10,066 bases of DNA, from the IMG/VR virus record IMGVR_UViG_2663763227_000008, positions 1 through 10,066 of that record. One strand, given 5' to 3'. Both the position numbers and the translations under genes were made by a program. Below the pieces are notes generated by a model. The model was not told where the DNA came from, did not search any database, and was given only the letters and a program-made list of their open reading frames with translations. Numbering within the stretch: position 1 is the first letter of the stretch; every line of letters starts with the position of its first letter. Of this stretch, positions 1,568-9,797 are shown piece after piece. This stretch comes from a virus (lineage: Duplodnaviria > Heunggongvirae > Uroviricota > Caudoviricetes).

Positions 1568-2611
1568 ATGAGCACTGTAGTTGAGTCAGTAATGGCACGC
1601 TATGCACAAGTTGTTGAGGAAGGTTACGTCGTAGATGGCGGGCCAAAATTCAAAAGTTATGCAGTTTCCAATCTGCGCGGTGGTGTTGGTAAGTCCACGA
1701 TGACATTCAACCTCGCCTATGAGCTGTCACGACGTAACTCCGTATTAGTGGCTGACTTATGCCCGCAATGTAATTTAACGGAGACACTATTGCGTGGTGA
1801 AAAACCGGTTGTAACAATAGCTAATGCACTGACACCAAAAATGCTGGGTCCAGCTTTTGGTGAGCAGCCAGAAGATATTTCATATCGAGTAAGTAATTTC
1901 TGCCCAGATTTTAAAGGTGGTAAGGCATGTTATGCGATTCCAGGTGATCCTGAGCTATTCGCTTTCCCATCAAGCATGTATCAACAACTACAAGTAGCGC
2001 TATCTCGCGGAGAACCAAAAGCAGTATCAACACTATTAAATTCTCTTCGCGCAATAATGAACGATGAAGCGAAAGACAAAAAATGCGAAATTTTATTGAT
2101 GGATACAAGCCCTTTCTATGCTGGAGGAACACACCTAGCATGGTGCGCGTCTGAGGCATTGATTATCCCTGTACGCGTAGATGAACACTCAATTGAGTCA
2201 CTTCATCTCACAATGGAAATGCTGGCAAATAAATCAAAAGATTTTGTATTATGGAATGAGCGTGCGGGTGGGCTTGGGGCTCCAAAAGTAGCAGCGATCG
2301 TAATGACAATGGCTGGTTCAAAAAGCCGTAAATCATCAACACCAGGTCGCGCATCTCAAATGTACATAGAGAGAGCTGTAAAAATCGCTGAAAAATACAG
2401 TCATCTCTTTGCCGATGAAGATGTTAGCAAAGCAATTGTGGTTACAGATGATTTTGTATCAAGCGGGCAAATTAGTGGGGCTGAAAGCATACCAATATCA
2501 CAGCTAAAAGTTGGTCGCTTCCATACAGTAAGTGAAGGGAAAAGGTTACAAGTTAACCAGTCGGTTACTCGATATCAAAGACAACTTAAGTATCTGGCAA
2601 GTATTCTTTAA
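1568..2611 (+). CDS. ParA/MinD-family P-loop ATPase-like protein (347 aa) occupying the rexAB-equivalent slot
   Basis: Strong SD aaaggagg 7 nt before the ATG. Motifs read from the translation: deviant Walker A AVSNLRGGVGKST (res 32-44), Walker A' VLVADLCPQCNLT (59-71), Walker B EILLMDTSP (174-182); ~100-aa C-terminal extension with no recognised motif. Confidence 0.85.
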   Translation: MSTVVESVMARYAQVVEEGYVVDGGPKFKSYAVSNLRGGVGKSTMTFNLAYELSRRNSVLVADLCPQCNLTETLLRGEKPVVTIANALTPKMLGPAFGEQPEDISYRVSNFCPDFKGGKACYAIPGDPELFAFPSSMYQQLQVALSRGEPKAVSTLLNSLRAIMNDEAKDKKCEILLMDTSPFYAGGTHLAWCASEALIIPVRVDEHSIESLHLTMEMLANKSKDFVLWNERAGGLGAPKVAAIVMTMAGSKSRKSSTPGRASQMYIERAVKIAEKYSHLFADEDVSKAIVVTDDFVSSGQISGAESIPISQLKVGRFHTVSEGKRLQVNQSVTRYQRQLKYLASIL

Positions 2612-3101: not shown

Positions 3102-3485
3102 ATGACACGCAGAACTCAGTTCAAAGGCAATTCACGTTCTCGTCGTCGTGAGCTTTTAAAGGCAAAGGCATTAGCTAACGGCGTGCTGGCCCGCGAAGAA
3201 GCAATAAGTTCAGAAGTATTACACCGCCCTACTCTAAGCAGAGCGCAGATTCAGGCTAAAGGTACTCACGAAACGCCTGAGCGCATAGAAGACGCTAAGC
3301 CAATTAAGTTCATGGCACAGGACGTGATCTGGCAACAGAAAGAATACAGACGCAATCTGGAGCGAGCGGCCATTGTGTACGCGAATGAGTTTGGACATAA
3401 GCAACCAGAAACTGGTGTATGTCTTCCAAACGTAGCCATTTACGCGGCAGGCTACCGGAAATCAAAACAACTGACGGCGAGGTGA
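3102..3485 (+). CDS. N: N-family transcription antiterminator (P22 gp24-like)
   Basis: SD aggagg before the ATG; first gene after pL/nutL. N-terminal arginine-rich motif GNSRSRRRELLKAKALA; C-terminus LPNVAIYAAGYRKSKQLTAR resembles the P22 gene 24 product C-terminus as I recall it. Confidence 0.75.
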   Translation: MTRRTQFKGNSRSRRRELLKAKALANGVLAREEAISSEVLHRPTLSRAQIQAKGTHETPERIEDAKPIKFMAQDVIWQQKEYRRNLERAAIVYANEFGHKQPETGVCLPNVAIYAAGYRKSKQLTAR

Positions 3486-4433: not shown

Positions 4434-5039
4434 ATGAGCAAAGAATTTTACGCAAGACTGGCAGCTATTCAGGAGAATCTGAACGCGCCAAAAAATCAGT
4501 ACAACTCATTCGGTAAATATAAATACAGAAGCTGCGAAGACATTCTTGAAGGCGTTAAGCCGTTACTGAATGGCCTGTTTTTATCAATCAGCGATGAAGT
4601 TGTGTTGATTGGTGATCGGTATTACGTGAAAGCCACGGCAACTATTACCGATGGCGAAAACAGTCATACGGCAACCGCTCTTGCACGAGAGGAAGAAAGC
4701 AAGAAAGGAATGGATTCTGCACAAGTTACGGGAGCTACAAGCTCTTATGCACGCAAGTATTGCCTCAATGGTTTGTTCGGCATTGATGATGCGAAAGATG
4801 CAGATACAGACGAGCATAAACATCAGCAGAACGCAGCAGCAAAGCAATCAAAACCATCACCTACACCTGAACAGGTTCTAAAAGCATTCACTGACGCAGC
4901 AATGCAGAAAAACACCGTGGAAGAGCTTAAACAGGCGTTCGCCAAAGCGTGGAAGATGCTCGAAGGCACACCGGAGCAGCACAAAGCGCAGGACGTTTAC
5001 AACATCAGACGAGACGAATTAGAAGGAGCGGCTGCTTAA
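4434..5039 (+). CDS. erf: Erf-family single-strand annealing recombinase (P22 Erf-like)
   Basis: Translation MSKEFYARLAAIQENLNAPKNQYNSFGKYKYRSCEDILEGVKPLLNGLFLSISDEVVLIGDRYYVKATATITDGENSH... closely resembles P22 Erf as I recall it; ATG 4434 preferred over the upstream TTG at 4404. Confidence 0.8.
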   Translation: MSKEFYARLAAIQENLNAPKNQYNSFGKYKYRSCEDILEGVKPLLNGLFLSISDEVVLIGDRYYVKATATITDGENSHTATALAREEESKKGMDSAQVTGATSSYARKYCLNGLFGIDDAKDADTDEHKHQQNAAAKQSKPSPTPEQVLKAFTDAAMQKNTVEELKQAFAKAWKMLEGTPEQHKAQDVYNIRRDELEGAAA

Positions 5040-5422
5040 TGGCACATTCGATTACTGTAAGACTAAACAAGCCCGCAAGAGAGTTTCAGGCCGGGGAAAA
5101 TATCGGATTCAACATCCGTGCTGGCGTTCAGTATTACGATCGCCAGACAAAAAAGAAAGAATGGACAAACTACAGCGCCGTTGTATTTGCCAAGCCGGGA
5201 GCGCAAGCGGATTACTACCGTAGTGTTCTTGTTGAAGGTGGCATTGTAGAAATTACCGGAGAAAACATCAGGGTTGATGTTTATCAGGGGCAAAATGGTC
5301 AATCAATCACTCTTGAATTACTGAATGCAAAGATTGGATTTGCAACTTCAGGAAACAGCCAACAGCAGCAAAGTAGCAATCATCAAAATCATCCTGAATA
5401 CGACGATTCAATTCCATTCTAA
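5039..5422 (+). CDS. Putative single-stranded DNA-binding protein (OB-fold-like), coupled to erf
   Basis: Start overlaps the erf stop (TAATG) with SD aggag upstream. 127 aa with an SSB-like pattern (KEWTNYSAVVFAKPGAQADYYRSVLVEGGIVEITGENIRVDVY) and a Q/S-rich acidic tail ending DDSIPF, reminiscent of the SSB C-terminal tip. Confidence 0.55.
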   Translation: MAHSITVRLNKPAREFQAGENIGFNIRAGVQYYDRQTKKKEWTNYSAVVFAKPGAQADYYRSVLVEGGIVEITGENIRVDVYQGQNGQSITLELLNAKIGFATSGNSQQQQSSNHQNHPEYDDSIPF

Positions 5423-6204: not shown

Positions 6205-6671
6205 AACAAATGTCACTAATTGAGATGGATGGTTTTCTGAAAGGTAAATGCATCCCACGAGATTTAAAGGTTAACGAAACAAATGCTGAATATCTGGTGC
6301 GTAAATTTGCTGAAGCTGAGGCCAAGTGCGCGGCACTGGCGGTGGAGAATGCGGGAATAAAGTCTGCAATTCCTCAACTACGGGATATTGATGCTGACAA
6401 TGACAATATGGATGACGTATCTCTTGCTGAAGACTTCGGATTCAATCATGCAATAGAACGGATGAGGAGACAGATACCTGAAACCCCAGCCACCGATGCT
6501 TTTCTGGCTGAAGTACGGGCGCAGGGCGTGGAGATGTACGCAGATAACCTCGACAACGCAGCAGACGACGCAGAACGAGGTGGTTTTGATTATGCCGTTA
6601 AGTTTCTACGCAGTGAAGCGTCTAGTGTACGTTTGTTCGCCGGCCAGCTTCGCAAAGGAGGCAAACAGTGA
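6201..6671 (+). CDS. Hypothetical acidic protein (156 aa from ATG 6201; alternative GTG start at 6183)
   Basis: Long ORF in the coupled string; acidic, Ala/Asp-rich; no recognisable motif. Confidence 0.5.
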
Positions 6672-7486
6672 GCGAAATTGACTATCAGGCACTGCGTGCT
6701 AAGGCAGAGAAAGCAACGTGTGGTGCGTGGTCGCTCGAATATGGAGAGGGCCGATTTGATGGTGATGATGCGCTAATTCATCGCAAGGCTGCTGGATATA
6801 TTCCCATTTGCAGAATTGAAGGAGCGCATCCAGAAAGCGGTTTCGATGAAGATTTCCAAATGGAACAGCAGGCCAATGCTGAATTCATCGCCGCAGCCAA
6901 TCCGGCTACTGTGCTGGCGCTTCTGGATGAACGGGAAAGAAACCAGCAATACATCAAACGCCGTGACCAGGAGAACGAGGATATTGCTCTTACGGTTGGG
7001 AAGCTGAGAGTTGAGCTTGAGGAAGTAAAACAACACGCTGAAGAATTATCCGAAACCAAGGCTGTTCGTAACCAATGGCGGCCAGATATTTGCCCAATAA
7101 CCGGACGTGCATTTTTCATGTGGATTGAGCATCCAACATTGGGGAATGTGCCGACATATGGTGGCCCATTAGATAGTTACACCATTCCAACAAAGGACGG
7201 TGACGGTGAGTTTTCATGTGAGCGTTACGATCATGATTTTGGCGGTTGGGTAGAAAGCGAATGTCTTGGGTTATATCTGATTGATGATAGAGAACAATGC
7301 AGGGTCTACGAACTGGAGGAACGCGTTAAGGAACTGGATGCTCGGGAAATATCGCTCCCGGAACGTAGCAGCATGCTTCATCGAACAGATTTTCACGATG
7401 ATTACCAAACGGTAATGGCATACAAAGTTTCTGAAGTCATCGATGCAATCCGCGCTACTGGCATTCGCATCAAAGGAGGTGAGTAG
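6668..7486 (+). CDS. Ea22/Ead-like family protein (272 aa)
   Basis: GTG start with SD aaggagg and GTGA overlap with the upstream stop. N-terminus [16 protein letters not shown] and segment LLDERERNQQYIKRRDQENEDIALTVGKLRVELEE resemble Ea22-like prophage proteins from memory; central coiled-coil-like region. Confidence 0.5.
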   Translation: MSEIDYQALRAKAEKATCGAWSLEYGEGRFDGDDALIHRKAAGYIPICRIEGAHPESGFDEDFQMEQQANAEFIAAANPATVLALLDERERNQQYIKRRDQENEDIALTVGKLRVELEEVKQHAEELSETKAVRNQWRPDICPITGRAFFMWIEHPTLGNVPTYGGPLDSYTIPTKDGDGEFSCERYDHDFGGWVESECLGLYLIDDREQCRVYELEERVKELDAREISLPERSSMLHRTDFHDDYQTVMAYKVSEVIDAIRATGIRIKGGE

Positions 7487-7662
7487 TGCGTGTGGCATGT
7501 ATCGGCTTGTTACCGTACCCGACTCGTTTTTGGGCTTCTGCGCTAATTGCAAAGCCACATGTCCTGATGACTGACAACATCATCCCGGCACCAAAGCGCC
7601 GCCATACCGGTATTGCAGCGGCACGACGAGCAGCAAAGAGACGCAGGAGAGCAAAACGATGA
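7486..7662 (+). CDS. Hypothetical small basic protein (58 aa, GTG start), not in ORF track
   Basis: GTG overlaps the upstream TAG; Arg/Lys-rich C-terminus AARRAAKRRRRAKR; its stop overlaps the next ATG (ATGA). Supported only by coupling geometry. Confidence 0.25.
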   Translation: MRVACIGLLPYPTRFWASALIAKPHVLMTDNIIPAPKRRHTGIAAARRAAKRRRRAKR

Positions 7663-7835
7663 AAAACCGTAAAGCAAAATTACTTCTTTTATCGCGTTCG
7701 ACGGGGTACGAGAAGCTACCAATCAGCAATCACAAACGGGCGGTGATCGGCATGTTTGGTAGGGTGGTATTCGCATTTAACTATAAACCCACCGCGTCGC
7801 GTAACAGACGAGAGAAGGGGTACGCAGTGCGATGA
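7659..7835 (+). CDS. Hypothetical small protein (58 aa), N-terminus MKNRKAKLL, not in ORF track
   Basis: ATG overlaps the upstream stop; its first ~20 nt are duplicated at the start of the next ORF (7832). Confidence 0.25.
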   Translation: MKNRKAKLLLLSRSTGYEKLPISNHKRAVIGMFGRVVFAFNYKPTASRNRREKGYAVR

Positions 7836-8023
7836 AAAACCGTAAAGCTAAGATGCTTATCTCCCGTGTATACAGACTTTGCTATCCCAGCCAGTGGTTG
7901 AGAGTTAGCAATCGCTGTGTGGTGTTGTTTTCATTTTCTGGAATTGCCAGAGAGGGAATCAAAGATAAGCGCAGCGCGGCGCAAAACCGCTGGAAAAACC
8001 ACTTGCGCACTAAAGGAGCCTGA
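7832..8023 (+). CDS. Hypothetical small protein (63 aa), N-terminus MKNRKAKML
   Basis: ATG overlaps the upstream stop (ATGA); shares its 5' 19 nt exactly with the start of the previous small ORF. Confidence 0.3.
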   Translation: MKNRKAKMLISRVYRLCYPSQWLRVSNRCVVLFSFSGIAREGIKDKRSAAQNRWKNHLRTKGA

Positions 8024-8024
8024 T

Positions 8025-8234
8025 ATGGCTATTGCCGCAAGTTACACCATGCATCTCTATTGTGATTGCCTCCAGTGTACAGATGGCAAATATAAGTCGC
8101 CAGACTTCGGTGAGTATATAGGTACGTCATGGGCTGGCTGTGCAAAAGAGGCGCGCAAGGATGGCTGGCGAATAAGCAAAGACAAAACGCGTGCTTTTGC
8201 GCCCGGGCATAAAGTTTTGAGGATTAACAAATGA
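8025..8234 (+). CDS. Hypothetical Cys-rich small protein (69 aa; C-x-C-x2-C ... C, possible zinc-binding)
   Basis: SD aaggag 6 nt upstream of ATG 8025; translation MAIAASYTMHLYCDCLQCTDGKYKSPDFGEYIGTSWAGCAKEARKDGW...; the GTG-initiated extension from 7917 is rejected. Confidence 0.45.
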   Translation: MAIAASYTMHLYCDCLQCTDGKYKSPDFGEYIGTSWAGCAKEARKDGWRISKDKTRAFAPGHKVLRINK

Positions 8235-9025
8235 CCACTATAACCAAAGAGCGACTGCTGACAATCAAGCAGTGGCGCGAAACATACGGACCTGGTAGCA
8301 ACGTTGTACTGCCAGCAGAAGAAGCGGAAGAACTGGCACGAATTGCACTGGCATCGCTGGAACGCGAACAGATTCGCCACGAGCATGCCAAATGGTCTGA
8401 CTCCACATTTGGCTGCGTTGGCCCCATTGGTCCACTGAAACACCTCTCAAAAGAGGCTATGGAAACCGCAGCCGAACCAGACGATCTCAGCGAGTGGGCT
8501 GATATGCATTTCCTGTTGTGGGATGCACAGCGCCGTGCTGGCATCAGCGATGCTGAAATTACCGCTGCTATGGAAGATAAATTGAAGATCAACATGGAGC
8601 GCCAGTGGCCTGAACCAAAAGATGGTGAGCCTCGCTTGCACATTAAAGAACCCGGCAACTCTCCGGTAATTCCGGATGATTTATCCACGGTATGCGCTGA
8701 GGCTTATCAGGTTGTAGGAGTTATGGCAGATGCGCTTGGTGTATTCGGTGATGCAGCAGTACAGAAAGTTCTGGATAACCTGTCACAGCAAAAACTTGTT
8801 CACAGAGATGTGCTGCCGTTCTCGCTTCCGGTGACTCCGGATGGTTGGATAAGCTGTAGTGAGCGAATGCCCCCTCAAGATGATTGGATTTTAATTTATT
8901 CAAAGCACGGCGAGTATATGGCAGGACAGGTACAAGGGGAATACGTGGAGTTGAGCGACGGCACTTTATCGTGGTTAGGGAACGCCTTGTTCTGGATGCC
9001 GCTACCAGAACCGCCTCAGGGGTGA
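8231..9025 (+). CDS. DUF550-like (putative dNTP pyrophosphohydrolase-like) N-terminal domain fused to DUF551-like C-terminal domain (264 aa)
   Basis: ATGA overlap with the upstream stop. N-terminal region (MTTITKERLLTIKQWRETYGPGSNVVLPAEEAEELARIA ... WSDSTFG) and C-terminal region (GWISCSERMPP ... WMPLPEPP) resemble these prophage families from memory. Confidence 0.5.
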   Translation: MTTITKERLLTIKQWRETYGPGSNVVLPAEEAEELARIALASLEREQIRHEHAKWSDSTFGCVGPIGPLKHLSKEAMETAAEPDDLSEWADMHFLLWDAQRRAGISDAEITAAMEDKLKINMERQWPEPKDGEPRLHIKEPGNSPVIPDDLSTVCAEAYQVVGVMADALGVFGDAAVQKVLDNLSQQKLVHRDVLPFSLPVTPDGWISCSERMPPQDDWILIYSKHGEYMAGQVQGEYVELSDGTLSWLGNALFWMPLPEPPQG

Positions 9026-9334: not shown

Positions 9335-9414
9335 ACCGGTAAAGGTGTTCGCGATAAAGGTGAATATCGACAATGAATAACAATCCTCGCACTCGCGGGG
9401 ATCTCTTTTATCTG

Positions 9415-9440
9415 AACTCGCTACGGCGAGTTTTGTTTTA
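9415..9440 (+). terminator. Intrinsic terminator-like hairpin with U-run, 12 nt upstream of the next start codon
   Basis: aactcgc-tacg-gcgagtt stem-loop followed by ttttgtttta. Confidence 0.5.
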
Positions 9441-9452
9441 TGGAGACAAGAA

Positions 9453-9797
9453 ATGTCAGATTTGGCTATGAAGGTTTTGAAATGGCAATCAACTGGCGAT
9501 GTTGGCATCAGTAGCGCAACTCTTGCCTCAATCGCATGTGGACTGAAAAAGAATATCTATGGTCATCACTTCGGCGCTCCCCATGACGCAGCCGATTTCA
9601 GACGATGCGTTGCACTTGTTGAGCAGATTCCAGAAATCAGAGATTCATTCGACAAGGTTGCAAAGCGCGTTCCGTCATTCAAAGGAATCCTCAACGAATG
9701 GGATTCCCTCGTTGCTCTGTTGAAGTCTGAAATGAAGATACACGGAAACAAAGCACCAGAGACTTACAGAAGAATTAGCGAGTTACGCAAGGACTAA
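9453..9797 (+). CDS. Hypothetical protein (114 aa)
   Basis: SD ggaga upstream of the ATG; no recognisable motif. Confidence 0.5.
   Translation: MSDLAMKVLKWQSTGDVGISSATLASIACGLKKNIYGHHFGAPHDAADFRRCVALVEQIPEIRDSFDKVAKRVPSFKGILNEWDSLVALLKSEMKIHGNKAPETYRRISELRKD

What the first reader, a model, noticed from the sequence alone, without database searches (positions are those of the whole stretch)
8231..9025. DUF550-like putative nucleotide pyrophosphohydrolase domain fused to a DUF551-like domain
The N-terminal ~130 residues resemble the DUF550 family that I recall being annotated as dATP/dGTP pyrophosphohydrolase-like (MazG-like) in enterobacterial prophages; the C-terminal ~70 residues (GWISCSERMPP ... 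WMPLPEPP) resemble DUF551. A phage-encoded nucleotide pyrophosphohydrolase in the early operon could alter dNTP or signalling-nucleotide pools and so interact with host nucleotide-based immunity; the fusion partner is uncharacterised. Domain calls are from memory.
Basis: partly seen in the sequence, partly recalled or inferred. Interest (0 to 1): 0.4.

Follow-up and report, generated by a model that had tools for sequence, protein, structure and literature searches.

The report
Prophage EaA: MazZ-type pyrophosphohydrolase plus DUF551
This gene is an ordinary, already catalogued copy of the lambdoid-prophage accessory gene eaA: a probable purine-nucleotide pyrophosphohydrolase joined to a small shuffled domain of unknown function. 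Its role for the phage is still untested.

Summary
Window 8231-9025 (+) is a 264-aa ORF that matches Pfam PF04447 (dATP/dGTP pyrophosphohydrolase, formerly DUF550; aa 48-143, E=4e-41) and PF04448 (DUF551; aa 205-263, E=2.4e-10).

It is the homologue of phage P22 EaA, with the same layout and the same place in the early-left operon. The exact protein is on at least 14 public contigs. More than 2,600 complete E. coli genomes carry close DNA relatives, annotated "dATP/dGTP pyrophosphohydrolase domain-containing protein".

A profile of ten divergent phage DUF550 domains matches the crystal structure of cyanophage S-2L MazZ (7ODY, a (d)GTP pyrophosphohydrolase) at E=3e-14. All MazZ metal ligands and pocket residues are kept (E75, E78, E88, D91, D98, K117, N121, R124, W126). 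They are invariant or nearly so in 149 cluster representatives. An active purine (d)NTP to (d)NMP + PPi enzyme is therefore the best reading.

No PurZ or DatZ is nearby, so it is not a Z-genome enzyme.

The protein is a mosaic: a variable leader, a conserved enzyme core, an optional 55-aa spacer flanked by a 20-nt repeat, and a DUF551 cassette. DUF551 has fixed flanks and at least 12 swapped cores, and its model found no relative among solved structures.

The counter-defence idea has one published precedent (Atd1) but no direct evidence here. Known kind, low interest.

The parts
8231..9025 (+). eaA-type CDS, 264 aa, 29.5 kDa, pI 4.65
   Evidence: ORF list; Pfam PF04447 + PF04448; exact protein on at least 14 public contigs; mass and pI
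8219..8223 (+). Shine-Dalgarno GAGGA, 7 nt before the ATG. The start overlaps the stop of the upstream phrog_926 ORF (8025-8234) as ATGA, which suggests translational coupling.
   Evidence: read from the sequence; upstream ORF family
8231..8329 (+). Module A: variable N-terminal leader (aa 1-33). It is exchanged between homologues. DNA homology to most relatives starts at nt 100 of the gene, at the conserved ELARIALASLE joint.
   Evidence: BLAST breakpoints; alternative leaders in the alignment; phrog_3323 and phrog_660 match aa 1-54
8372..8659 (+). Module B: PF04447 (MazZ / DUF550) nucleotide pyrophosphohydrolase domain, aa 48-143
   Evidence: Pfam E=4e-41; family profile hits 7ODY MazZ at E=3.1e-14
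8453..8503 (+). Codons of the predicted metal ligands: E75 (8453-8455), E78 (8462-8464), E88 (8492-8494), D91 (8501-8503). They form the E-x-x-E ... E-x-x-D motif.
   Evidence: aligned to MazZ E35, E38, E50, D53 (residue roles from PMC8342488); invariant in 10 divergent phage domains and in 149 representatives
8522..8608 (+). Codons of predicted substrate-pocket residues: D98 (8522-8524), K117 (8579-8581), N121 (8591-8593), R124 (8600-8602), W126 (8606-8608)
   Evidence: aligned to MazZ D60 (guanine N2 contact), K76, N80, R83, W85; invariant in A3
8660..8824 (+). Module C: optional 55-aa spacer (aa 144-198), predicted helical at low confidence and absent from the 208-215-aa homologues
   Evidence: 55-column gap in the short variants; phrog_28884 match at aa 150-201; helix 154-186 in the low-confidence model
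8662..8681 (+). Left copy of a 20-nt direct repeat (TCCGGTAATTCCGGATGATT, encoding PVIPDD) that flanks module C
   Evidence: the repeat finder family D1, spacing 165 nt = 55 codons
8827..8846 (+). Right copy of the direct repeat (TCCGGTGACTCCGGATGGTT, encoding PVTPDG), 85% identical. It lies in the joint where DNA homology to other eaA alleles breaks (gene nt 597-641).
   Evidence: BLAST breakpoints
8843..9019 (+). Module D: DUF551 (PF04448), aa 205-263. The flanks GWISCSERMP and WMPLPEPP are conserved around a variable core. It is predicted to be a small 4-5-strand beta domain.
   Evidence: Pfam E=2.4e-10; at least 12 alternative cores; AF2 pLDDT 73.7

Best explanation
The ORF is the eaA gene of a lambdoid E. 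coli prophage that has lambda-type cI/cro and a P22-like early-left operon. It lies downstream of N, erf, ssb, abc2 and two ead/Ea22-like genes, just before the excisionase/integrase end. By the lambda/P22 paradigm it is transcribed from pL early after infection or induction and is silent in the lysogen (inferred).

Its conserved core is a MazZ-type all-alpha NTP pyrophosphohydrolase with an intact active site. It most likely hydrolyses purine (deoxy)nucleoside triphosphates (dGTP, GTP and/or dATP) to the monophosphate plus pyrophosphate, using divalent metals. MazG-like enzymes act as dimers or tetramers; that state is inferred here. The effect would be to trim, re-balance or sanitise the purine nucleotide pool while the phage replicates.

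The C-terminal DUF551 domain is an exchangeable cassette with fixed flanks and a swapped core. In these prophages it is joined to many unrelated N-terminal modules. I infer that it is a protein-interaction or targeting module, not part of the catalytic machinery.

Shown here: the domain identities, conservation of the catalytic residues, the mosaic anatomy, synteny with P22 eaA, and the absence of Z-genome partner genes. Inferred: substrate, oligomeric state, expression timing, biological role and the role of DUF551.
For: Domains: PF04447 at 139.6 bits and PF04448 at 41.5 bits.

Homology to a characterised enzyme: the profile of 10 divergent phage DUF550 domains hits the S-2L MazZ crystal structure 7ODY at E=3.1e-14. 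MazZ itself scores 44.7 bits on PF04447, above the 23-bit cut-off. MazZ is a (d)GTP to (d)GMP pyrophosphohydrolase whose ligands are E34/E35/E38/E50/E53-type acids and whose pocket includes D60, K76, N80, R83 and W85 (PMC8342488). The Acinetobacter phage SH-Ab 15497 dATP/dGTP enzyme also carries PF04447 (PMC12884076).

Active site: E75, E78, E88, D91, D98, K117, N121, R124 and W126 are invariant across the 10 divergent domains. They are invariant or at least 90% conserved across 149 50%-identity cluster representatives, which argues for selection on catalysis.

Identity as eaA: the domain is 77% identical to P22 EaA. P22 EaA has the same leader-DUF550-spacer-DUF551 order and the same position before xis/int.

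Context: N, ERF, SSB, Abc2, Ead/Ea22 x2, DUF4222 and an AlpA/excisionase-like gene; integrase follows in matching contigs.

DUF551 as a cassette: the same flanks enclose at least 12 different cores. The domain follows dozens of unrelated N-terminal modules. Only 23 of 149 DUF550 representatives carry it.
Against: No enzyme assay exists for any enterobacterial EaA, and no paper on its function was found.

The window protein is only distantly related to the two assayed enzymes. Pairwise BLASTP finds nothing against MazZ and a 42-aa stretch at 40% against the SH-Ab 15497 protein. Substrate transfer is therefore weak.

The SH-Ab 15497 enzyme is a DUF5664-DUF550 fusion, and a DUF5664 protein from another phage (Arthrobacter phage Wayne) hydrolyses dATP/dGTP/dUTP on its own (PMC12884076). 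Its activity therefore cannot be assigned cleanly to the DUF550 half.

MazZ K31 corresponds to a conserved His (H71) here (alignment), so the pocket is not identical.

The full-length AF2 model was poor over the enzyme domain (pLDDT below 50). The fold rests on sequence homology only.

Why a phage with ordinary DNA would destroy dGTP or dATP is not explained.
Confidence: 0.6

Rival explanations
1. Counter-defence enzyme. The pyrophosphohydrolase degrades an alarmone or immune signalling nucleotide, for example (p)ppGpp as reported for the phage MazG-like protein Atd1. It could instead offset host dNTP-based immunity. DUF551 variants would then track variable host targets.
For: Atd1, a MazG-like pyrophosphatase of Pectobacterium phage PcCB7V, hydrolyses ppGpp and relieves TIR-STING and retron-TIR toxicity (bioRxiv 10.1101/2022.06.09.495361). 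The gene sits in an early accessory region next to the anti-RecBCD gene abc2. Two of 149 DUF550 representatives are fused to a Lar restriction-alleviation domain. The DUF551 core is highly variable between fixed flanks, as expected of an arms-race surface.
Against: No test of EaA against any defence system was found. The conserved D98 matches the guanine-N2 contact of a (d)GTP enzyme, which fits ppGpp as well as dGTP and so does not discriminate. The core swapping could simply reflect the general mosaicism of ea genes.
Confidence: 0.2
2. House-cleaning enzyme. It removes damaged or non-canonical purine dNTPs (8-oxo-dGTP, dITP, 2-oxo-dATP) so that the phage genome is copied faithfully after SOS or oxidative induction.
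For: Sanitising non-canonical NTPs is the classical role of MazG-type enzymes (e.g. M. tuberculosis MazG, PMC10014863, listed). Prophage induction follows DNA or oxidative damage. The DUF551 protein YfdS has been linked to H2O2 tolerance (PMC4776307; PMC10834534).
Against: The two assayed PF04447 members act on canonical dGTP, GTP or dATP. The YfdS link concerns DUF551, not the enzyme domain, and is only a deletion phenotype.
Confidence: 0.12
3. MazZ-like step of a 2-aminoadenine (Z-genome) pathway that supplies dGMP to PurZ.
For: PF04447 got its name from exactly this role in S-2L and SH-Ab 15497.
Against: There is no PurZ (adenylosuccinate synthetase-like) or DatZ (HD phosphohydrolase) gene in the 10-kb window or in the four related contigs. 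In SH-Ab 15497 the three genes are adjacent. The close relatives are ordinary lambdoid and P22-like prophages of E. coli and Salmonella.
Confidence: 0.01
4. The enzyme domain is a catalytically irrelevant scaffold. The biological activity lies in the leader and/or DUF551, for example binding a host protein as Ea22-family and YfdS-type proteins may do.
For: The same leader is joined directly to DUF551 without DUF550 in many prophage proteins (P0154, P0189, P0222). DUF551 occurs alone or with Ead/Ea22. Most DUF551 variants are acidic.
Against: Strict conservation of every catalytic and pocket residue over 149 representatives and 10 distant phage lineages is hard to explain without catalysis.
Confidence: 0.07

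Closest known systems
Salmonella phage P22 EaA (gene eaA, 317 aa)
   Same: Same module order: an MTTITKER... leader, DUF550, a spacer, then DUF551 with GWISCSERMP ... HWMxLPxPP flanks. The DUF550 domain is 77% identical. Same place in the early-left operon, a few genes before xis/int.
   Different: Different leader variant, an extra insert before DUF550, a different spacer and a different DUF551 core. No function has been established for P22 EaA either; none was found in the library.
Cyanophage S-2L MazZ (PDB 7ODY), a (d)GTP-specific NTP pyrophosphohydrolase with the MazG-HisE fold
   Same: Same Pfam family: MazZ scores 44.7 bits on PF04447. The family profile matches 7ODY at E=3.1e-14. Metal ligands and D60, K76, N80, R83, W85 are all conserved here.
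   Different: MazZ is a stand-alone ~105-aa domain inside a purZ-datZ-mazZ cluster that makes Z-DNA. Here there are no partner genes, there are extra leader, spacer and DUF551 modules, K31 is replaced by His, and pairwise similarity is undetectable by BLASTP.
Acinetobacter phage SH-Ab 15497 dATP/dGTP pyrophosphohydrolase (DUF5664-DUF550)
   Same: Carries PF04447 (E=5e-8). The region is 26% identical in the alignment. It has the E-x-x-E / E-x-x-D motifs.
   Different: The partner domain is DUF5664 (PF18909) at the N-terminus, which is itself an active dNTP hydrolase in another phage (PMC12884076). The gene is adjacent to purZ and datZ. It has no DUF551.
Atd1, MazG-like pyrophosphatase of Pectobacterium phage PcCB7V
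   Same: A phage-encoded single MazG-like catalytic domain in an accessory region.
   Different: Its substrate is (p)ppGpp with no rNTP activity. Family-level relatedness to PF04447 was not tested. No DUF551 is reported.
DUF551 proteins: E. coli CPS-53 YfdS, Stx-phage Ea22 variant V2, stand-alone phage DUF551 proteins
   Same: Same C-terminal domain with the W-x5-R-x-P and HWMPLPEPP signature.
   Different: Different or absent N-terminal partners. Only indirect phenotypes are known: H2O2 sensitivity of a yfdS deletion, and a contribution to suppression of replication over-initiation when over-expressed with yfdQR.

Membership tests
PF04447 dATP/dGTP pyrophosphohydrolase (DUF550 / MazZ family) | Profile HMM score above the curated gathering threshold | tested here: met
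   139.6 bits against 23, E=4e-41, covering profile positions 1-96 of 97
PF04447 dATP/dGTP pyrophosphohydrolase (DUF550 / MazZ family) | Acidic metal-binding motifs E-x-x-E ... E-x-x-D of all-alpha NTP pyrophosphohydrolases | tested here: met
   E75-A-M-E78 and E88-W-A-D91 align with MazZ E35, E38, E50, D53. They are invariant in alignments A3 and A6.
PF04447 dATP/dGTP pyrophosphohydrolase (DUF550 / MazZ family) | Nucleotide-pocket and transition-state residues of MazZ (D60, K76, N80, R83, W85) | tested here: met
   D98, K117, N121, R124 and W126 are aligned and invariant. MazZ K31 is His71 here.
PF04447 dATP/dGTP pyrophosphohydrolase (DUF550 / MazZ family) | Four-helix MazG-HisE fold forming dimers or tetramers | tested here: inconclusive
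   The AF2 full-length model predicts helices over aa 29-123, but pLDDT is below 50. The fold is supported only through sequence homology to 7ODY. Oligomeric state was not modelled.
PF04447 dATP/dGTP pyrophosphohydrolase (DUF550 / MazZ family) | Hydrolysis of dGTP/dATP (or GTP) to the monophosphate plus PPi | not testable with these tools
   Needs an enzyme assay.
Z-genome cluster MazZ (functional role) | Co-location with purZ and datZ | tested here: not met
   No adenylosuccinate-synthetase-like or HD-phosphohydrolase gene in the window or in loci L013-L016. In SH-Ab 15497 the three genes are adjacent.
PF04448 DUF551 | Profile HMM score above threshold, plus the signature flanks W-I-x-x-x-[ED]-R-M-P and [HF]-W-M-P-L-P-E-P-P | tested here: met
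   41.5 bits against 22, covering profile positions 1-68 of 68. The flanks are invariant in A2, A4 and A5, including the Pseudomonas and Salmonella phage members.
P22-type EaA (early-left accessory gene) | Leader-DUF550-spacer-DUF551 order and a position in the N-dependent early-left operon near xis/int | tested here: met
   P22; window and matching contigs with integrase downstream.
Atd1-like anti-defence MazG | Sequence relatedness to Atd1 and (p)ppGpp hydrolysis that protects against TIR effectors | not tested
Activity needs experiments (for the precedent).
Known anti-phage defence proteins (PADLOC-DB) | Match to any defence-system model | tested here: not met
   No hit at E<=0.01.

The most novel reading that the evidence does not exclude
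DUF551 is a diversifying targeting cassette. Its invariant flanks build a small beta scaffold with no relative among solved structures. Its swapped core would recognise variable host or defence proteins, so that EaA delivers a purine-nucleotide or alarmone pyrophosphohydrolase to, or is switched on by, a specific host target. That would make the ea region of lambdoid phages a combinatorial counter-defence locus.
Probability: 0.12. Interest if true: 0.6.

Novelty: already known. Interest (0 to 1): 0.2.

Why it matters
As a sequence feature it adds nothing new. The exact protein, its two Pfam domains and its product name are already in public annotation.

What stays open is biological. eaA is one of the most widespread accessory genes of E. 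coli and Salmonella lambdoid and P1-like prophages, with close relatives in about half of complete E. coli genomes. Yet no function is known for it.

The analysis gives a concrete, testable prediction: an intact MazZ-like active site, probably purine-specific. It also flags DUF551 as a shuffled module with no relative among solved structures.

If the enzyme proves to act on alarmones or immune nucleotides, that would extend the Atd1 type of counter-defence to a very large group of temperate phages, including Stx phages.

Tried and rejected
1. The full-length AF2 model from a 33-sequence alignment was poor: pLDDT 45.6, and the enzyme domain was below 50. I did not use it for fold search.

3. 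The afdb50 library was unavailable.

4. A third homologue search seeded with a Pseudomonas DUF551 protein, meant to deepen the alignment, returned only 3 proteins.

5. NCBIfam and PADLOC gave no hits.

6. phmmer of the single protein against PDB gave only E=0.81 to 7ODY, and pairwise BLASTP gave nothing. A profile of divergent members was needed.

7. A literature search for a tested EaA function found nothing relevant.

8. I could not retrieve the Atd1 sequence, so I could not test whether it is a PF04447 member.

9. I considered and rejected a Z-genome role because the partner genes are absent. I also rejected antisense ORFs 8224-8688 and 8057-8443 as real genes: they lie wholly opposite a strongly supported CDS and have no independent support.

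10. The promoter and terminator scan around the gene showed nothing above shuffled expectation inside it. Base composition is unremarkable.

Full report
**Observation.** The window has an ORF from ATG 8231 to the TGA at 9023-9025 on the + strand, encoding 264 aa. A GAGGA ribosome-binding site lies 7 nt upstream. The ATG overlaps the stop codon of the preceding small ORF (ATGA), the usual sign of a translationally coupled operon gene. RefSeq annotation of a close homologue in E. coli A11 uses the same start.

Pfam gives two clear matches. One is PF04447 "dATP/dGTP pyrophosphohydrolase", the renamed DUF550, at aa 48-143 (139.6 bits, E=4e-41). The other is PF04448 DUF551 at aa 205-263 (41.5 bits, E=2.4e-10).

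**What it is.** The window is the immunity and early-left region of a lambdoid E. coli prophage. The genes in order are:
- lambda-type cro and cI;
- a ParA-like ATPase where lambda has rexAB;
- an N antiterminator;
- ERF recombinase and an SSB-like protein;
- Abc2 anti-RecBCD;
- two Ead/Ea22-like genes and several tiny ORFs;
- the gene in question;
- a DUF4222 gene and an AlpA/excisionase-like gene.

In public contigs that carry the identical protein, an integrase and the host gene sbcB follow.

This is the layout of phage P22, where the gene at the equivalent place is eaA. P22 EaA has the same order of parts: an MTTITKER... leader, DUF550, a spacer, then DUF551. It is 77% identical over the enzyme domain. 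The finding is thus an eaA allele.

It is not rare. The exact 264-aa protein is on at least 14 public contigs. Close DNA relatives occur in 2,640 of 5,426 complete E. coli genomes, on chromosomes and on P1-like plasmids, annotated "dATP/dGTP pyrophosphohydrolase domain-containing protein", "DUF550 domain-containing protein" or "EaA".

**Anatomy.** Aligning homologues shows a four-part mosaic:
- Module A (aa 1-33) exists in several unrelated versions.
- Module B (aa ~34-143, the enzyme) is almost invariant.
- Module C (aa 144-198) is present or absent as a block.
- Module D (DUF551) has invariant flanks, GWISCSERMP and (H)WMPLPEPP, around a core that occurs in at least 12 unrelated versions.

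The DNA homology breakpoints fall exactly at the conserved joints. Most relatives start matching at gene nt 100 (the ELARIALASLE joint). They stop at nt 618-641, or start at nt 597 (the PVTPDGWISCSERMP joint). Module C is bracketed by a 20-nt direct repeat (8662-8681 and 8827-8846, 85% identical, 165 nt apart) that encodes PVIPDD and PVTPDG. This accounts for the clean 55-codon presence/absence.

DUF551 with the same flanks is attached to dozens of other N-terminal modules in E. coli prophage proteins. In some, this very leader is joined directly to DUF551 without the enzyme. DUF551 also occurs as a stand-alone ~68-aa protein in Pseudomonas and Salmonella phages.

Conversely, of 149 50%-identity cluster representatives with a closely related enzyme domain, only 23 carry DUF551. 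The "fusion" is one recurrent combination within a shuffling gene family, not a special invention.

**Is the enzyme domain likely to be active?** Two PF04447 members have been assayed.

The first is cyanophage S-2L MazZ. It is a stand-alone domain that converts (d)GTP to (d)GMP. Its structure (7ODY) shows three metal ions held by E34/E35/E38/E50/D53 and a pocket that includes D60 (contacting the guanine 2-amino group), K76, N80, R83 and W85 (PMC8342488).

The second is the Acinetobacter phage SH-Ab 15497 dATP/dGTP pyrophosphohydrolase (PMC12884076). I confirmed that it is a PF18909 (DUF5664) + PF04447 fusion next to purZ.

The single window protein hits 7ODY only weakly (E=0.81). A profile of ten divergent phage DUF550 domains (enterobacterial, Klebsiella, Paracoccus, Burkholderia, Pseudomonas, three actinophages, SH-Ab 15497) hits it at E=3.1e-14. 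The MazZ sequence itself scores above threshold on PF04447 (44.7 bits), with only weak matches to other MazG-clan families.

In these alignments the window residues E75, E78, E88 and D91 correspond to the metal ligands. D98, K117, N121, R124 and W126 correspond to the pocket and transition-state residues. All nine are invariant in the ten-lineage alignment. All nine are invariant or at least 90% conserved in the 149 representatives. That conservation is what one expects of a working enzyme, and the retained Asp at the guanine-N2 position points to a purine, probably guanine, nucleotide.

Three caveats apply. The relationship to both assayed enzymes is distant. MazZ K31 is a conserved His here. 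The SH-Ab 15497 activity cannot be assigned cleanly to its DUF550 half, because a DUF5664 protein from another phage (Arthrobacter phage Wayne) is active on dATP/dGTP/dUTP by itself.

**What it is not.** It is not a Z-genome enzyme. No PurZ- or DatZ-like gene is in the window or in four related contigs, and its relatives are ordinary lambdoid, P22-like and P1-like elements. It matches no PADLOC defence model.

Most variants are acidic, but not all. Published information is limited to indirect phenotypes of YfdS and the remark that DUF551 behaves as a portable domain in Ea22 variants (PMC4776307, PMC10834534). I infer an interaction or targeting module. This is not shown.

**Mechanism and rivals.**
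- Best-supported account (about 0.6): an early-expressed, metal-dependent purine (d)NTP pyrophosphohydrolase that adjusts or sanitises the nucleotide pool during phage replication, carrying an exchangeable DUF551 adaptor.
It gains mild support from the neighbourhood (abc2), from rare Lar fusions and from DUF551 variability. Nothing ties EaA itself to any defence system.
- House-cleaning of damaged dNTPs (about 0.12).
- A non-catalytic scaffold (about 0.07).
- A Z-DNA role: essentially excluded.

**Verdict.** The feature is already known in kind, and its exact sequence is already public. It is an ordinary eaA allele. Interest is low (0.2). The residual value is that a very widespread prophage gene still lacks a demonstrated function, and that the active-site analysis makes the biochemical test straightforward.

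Noticed in passing
window 1568-2611 (+): A 347-aa ParA/AAA_31-type P-loop ATPase (Pfam E=3e-13; phrog_164) sits between lambda-type cI (598-1311) and the N gene (3102-3485), where lambda carries rexA/rexB. That position often holds lysogen-expressed exclusion or defence genes. PADLOC gave only a non-significant hit (PDC-M28B, E=0.0011).
   Followed up: partly
window 5039-5422 (+): A 127-aa ORF directly after erf has no Pfam match but hits the PHROG SSB family (phrog_44, E=2e-28). It ends in ...PEYDDSIPF, which resembles the acidic C-terminal tip of bacterial SSB, so it is likely a phage SSB that could dock host SSB-interacting proteins.
   Followed up: partly
window 7659-7835 and 7832-8023 (+): Two adjacent small ORFs (58 and 63 aa) both start MKNRKAK and both match phrog_1380. 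This is a tandem duplication with overlapping stop/start, just upstream of eaA.
   Followed up: partly
L013 and L014 3953-7104, versus L015 and L016: The identical block (two Ead/Ea22-like genes, small ORFs, eaA, DUF4222) occurs in two genome contexts. One is the early-left operon next to int and sbcB, as in the window. In other phages it lies between a lambda-P-like replication gene and the small terminase subunit, a nin-like position. The whole cassette therefore moves between operons.
   Followed up: no
proteins P0241-P0389; P0019: Among 149 cluster representatives with a close DUF550 domain, two also carry a Lar restriction-alleviation domain, one an Ead/Ea22 domain and one an excisionase-like domain. 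P0019 (345 aa) has a Cys-rich N-terminal extension before the same leader. These may be true fusions or read-through annotations.
   Followed up: no
window 6668-7486 (+) and 8231-9025 (+): The Ead/Ea22-like protein and EaA both match the same composite PHROG, phrog_60, at profile positions 1-127 and 116-280 of 461. This implies that Ea22-DUF550-DUF551 fusions exist in other phages.
   Followed up: no
window 9383-9402 and 9414-9433 (+): Two consecutive terminator-like hairpins with T tails lie between the DUF4222 gene and the next ORF (9453-9797), inside what should be an N-antiterminated operon.
   Followed up: no
L010 1-1059 (Pseudomonas phage MD8); L007 185-876 (Mycobacterium phage Barbarian): In distant phages the DUF550 gene lies next to other nucleotide-metabolism genes: an N-deoxyribosyltransferase-like gene in MD8 and a 'hydrolase' in Barbarian. 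This fits a nucleotide-pool role for the family outside Z-genome phages.
   Followed up: no
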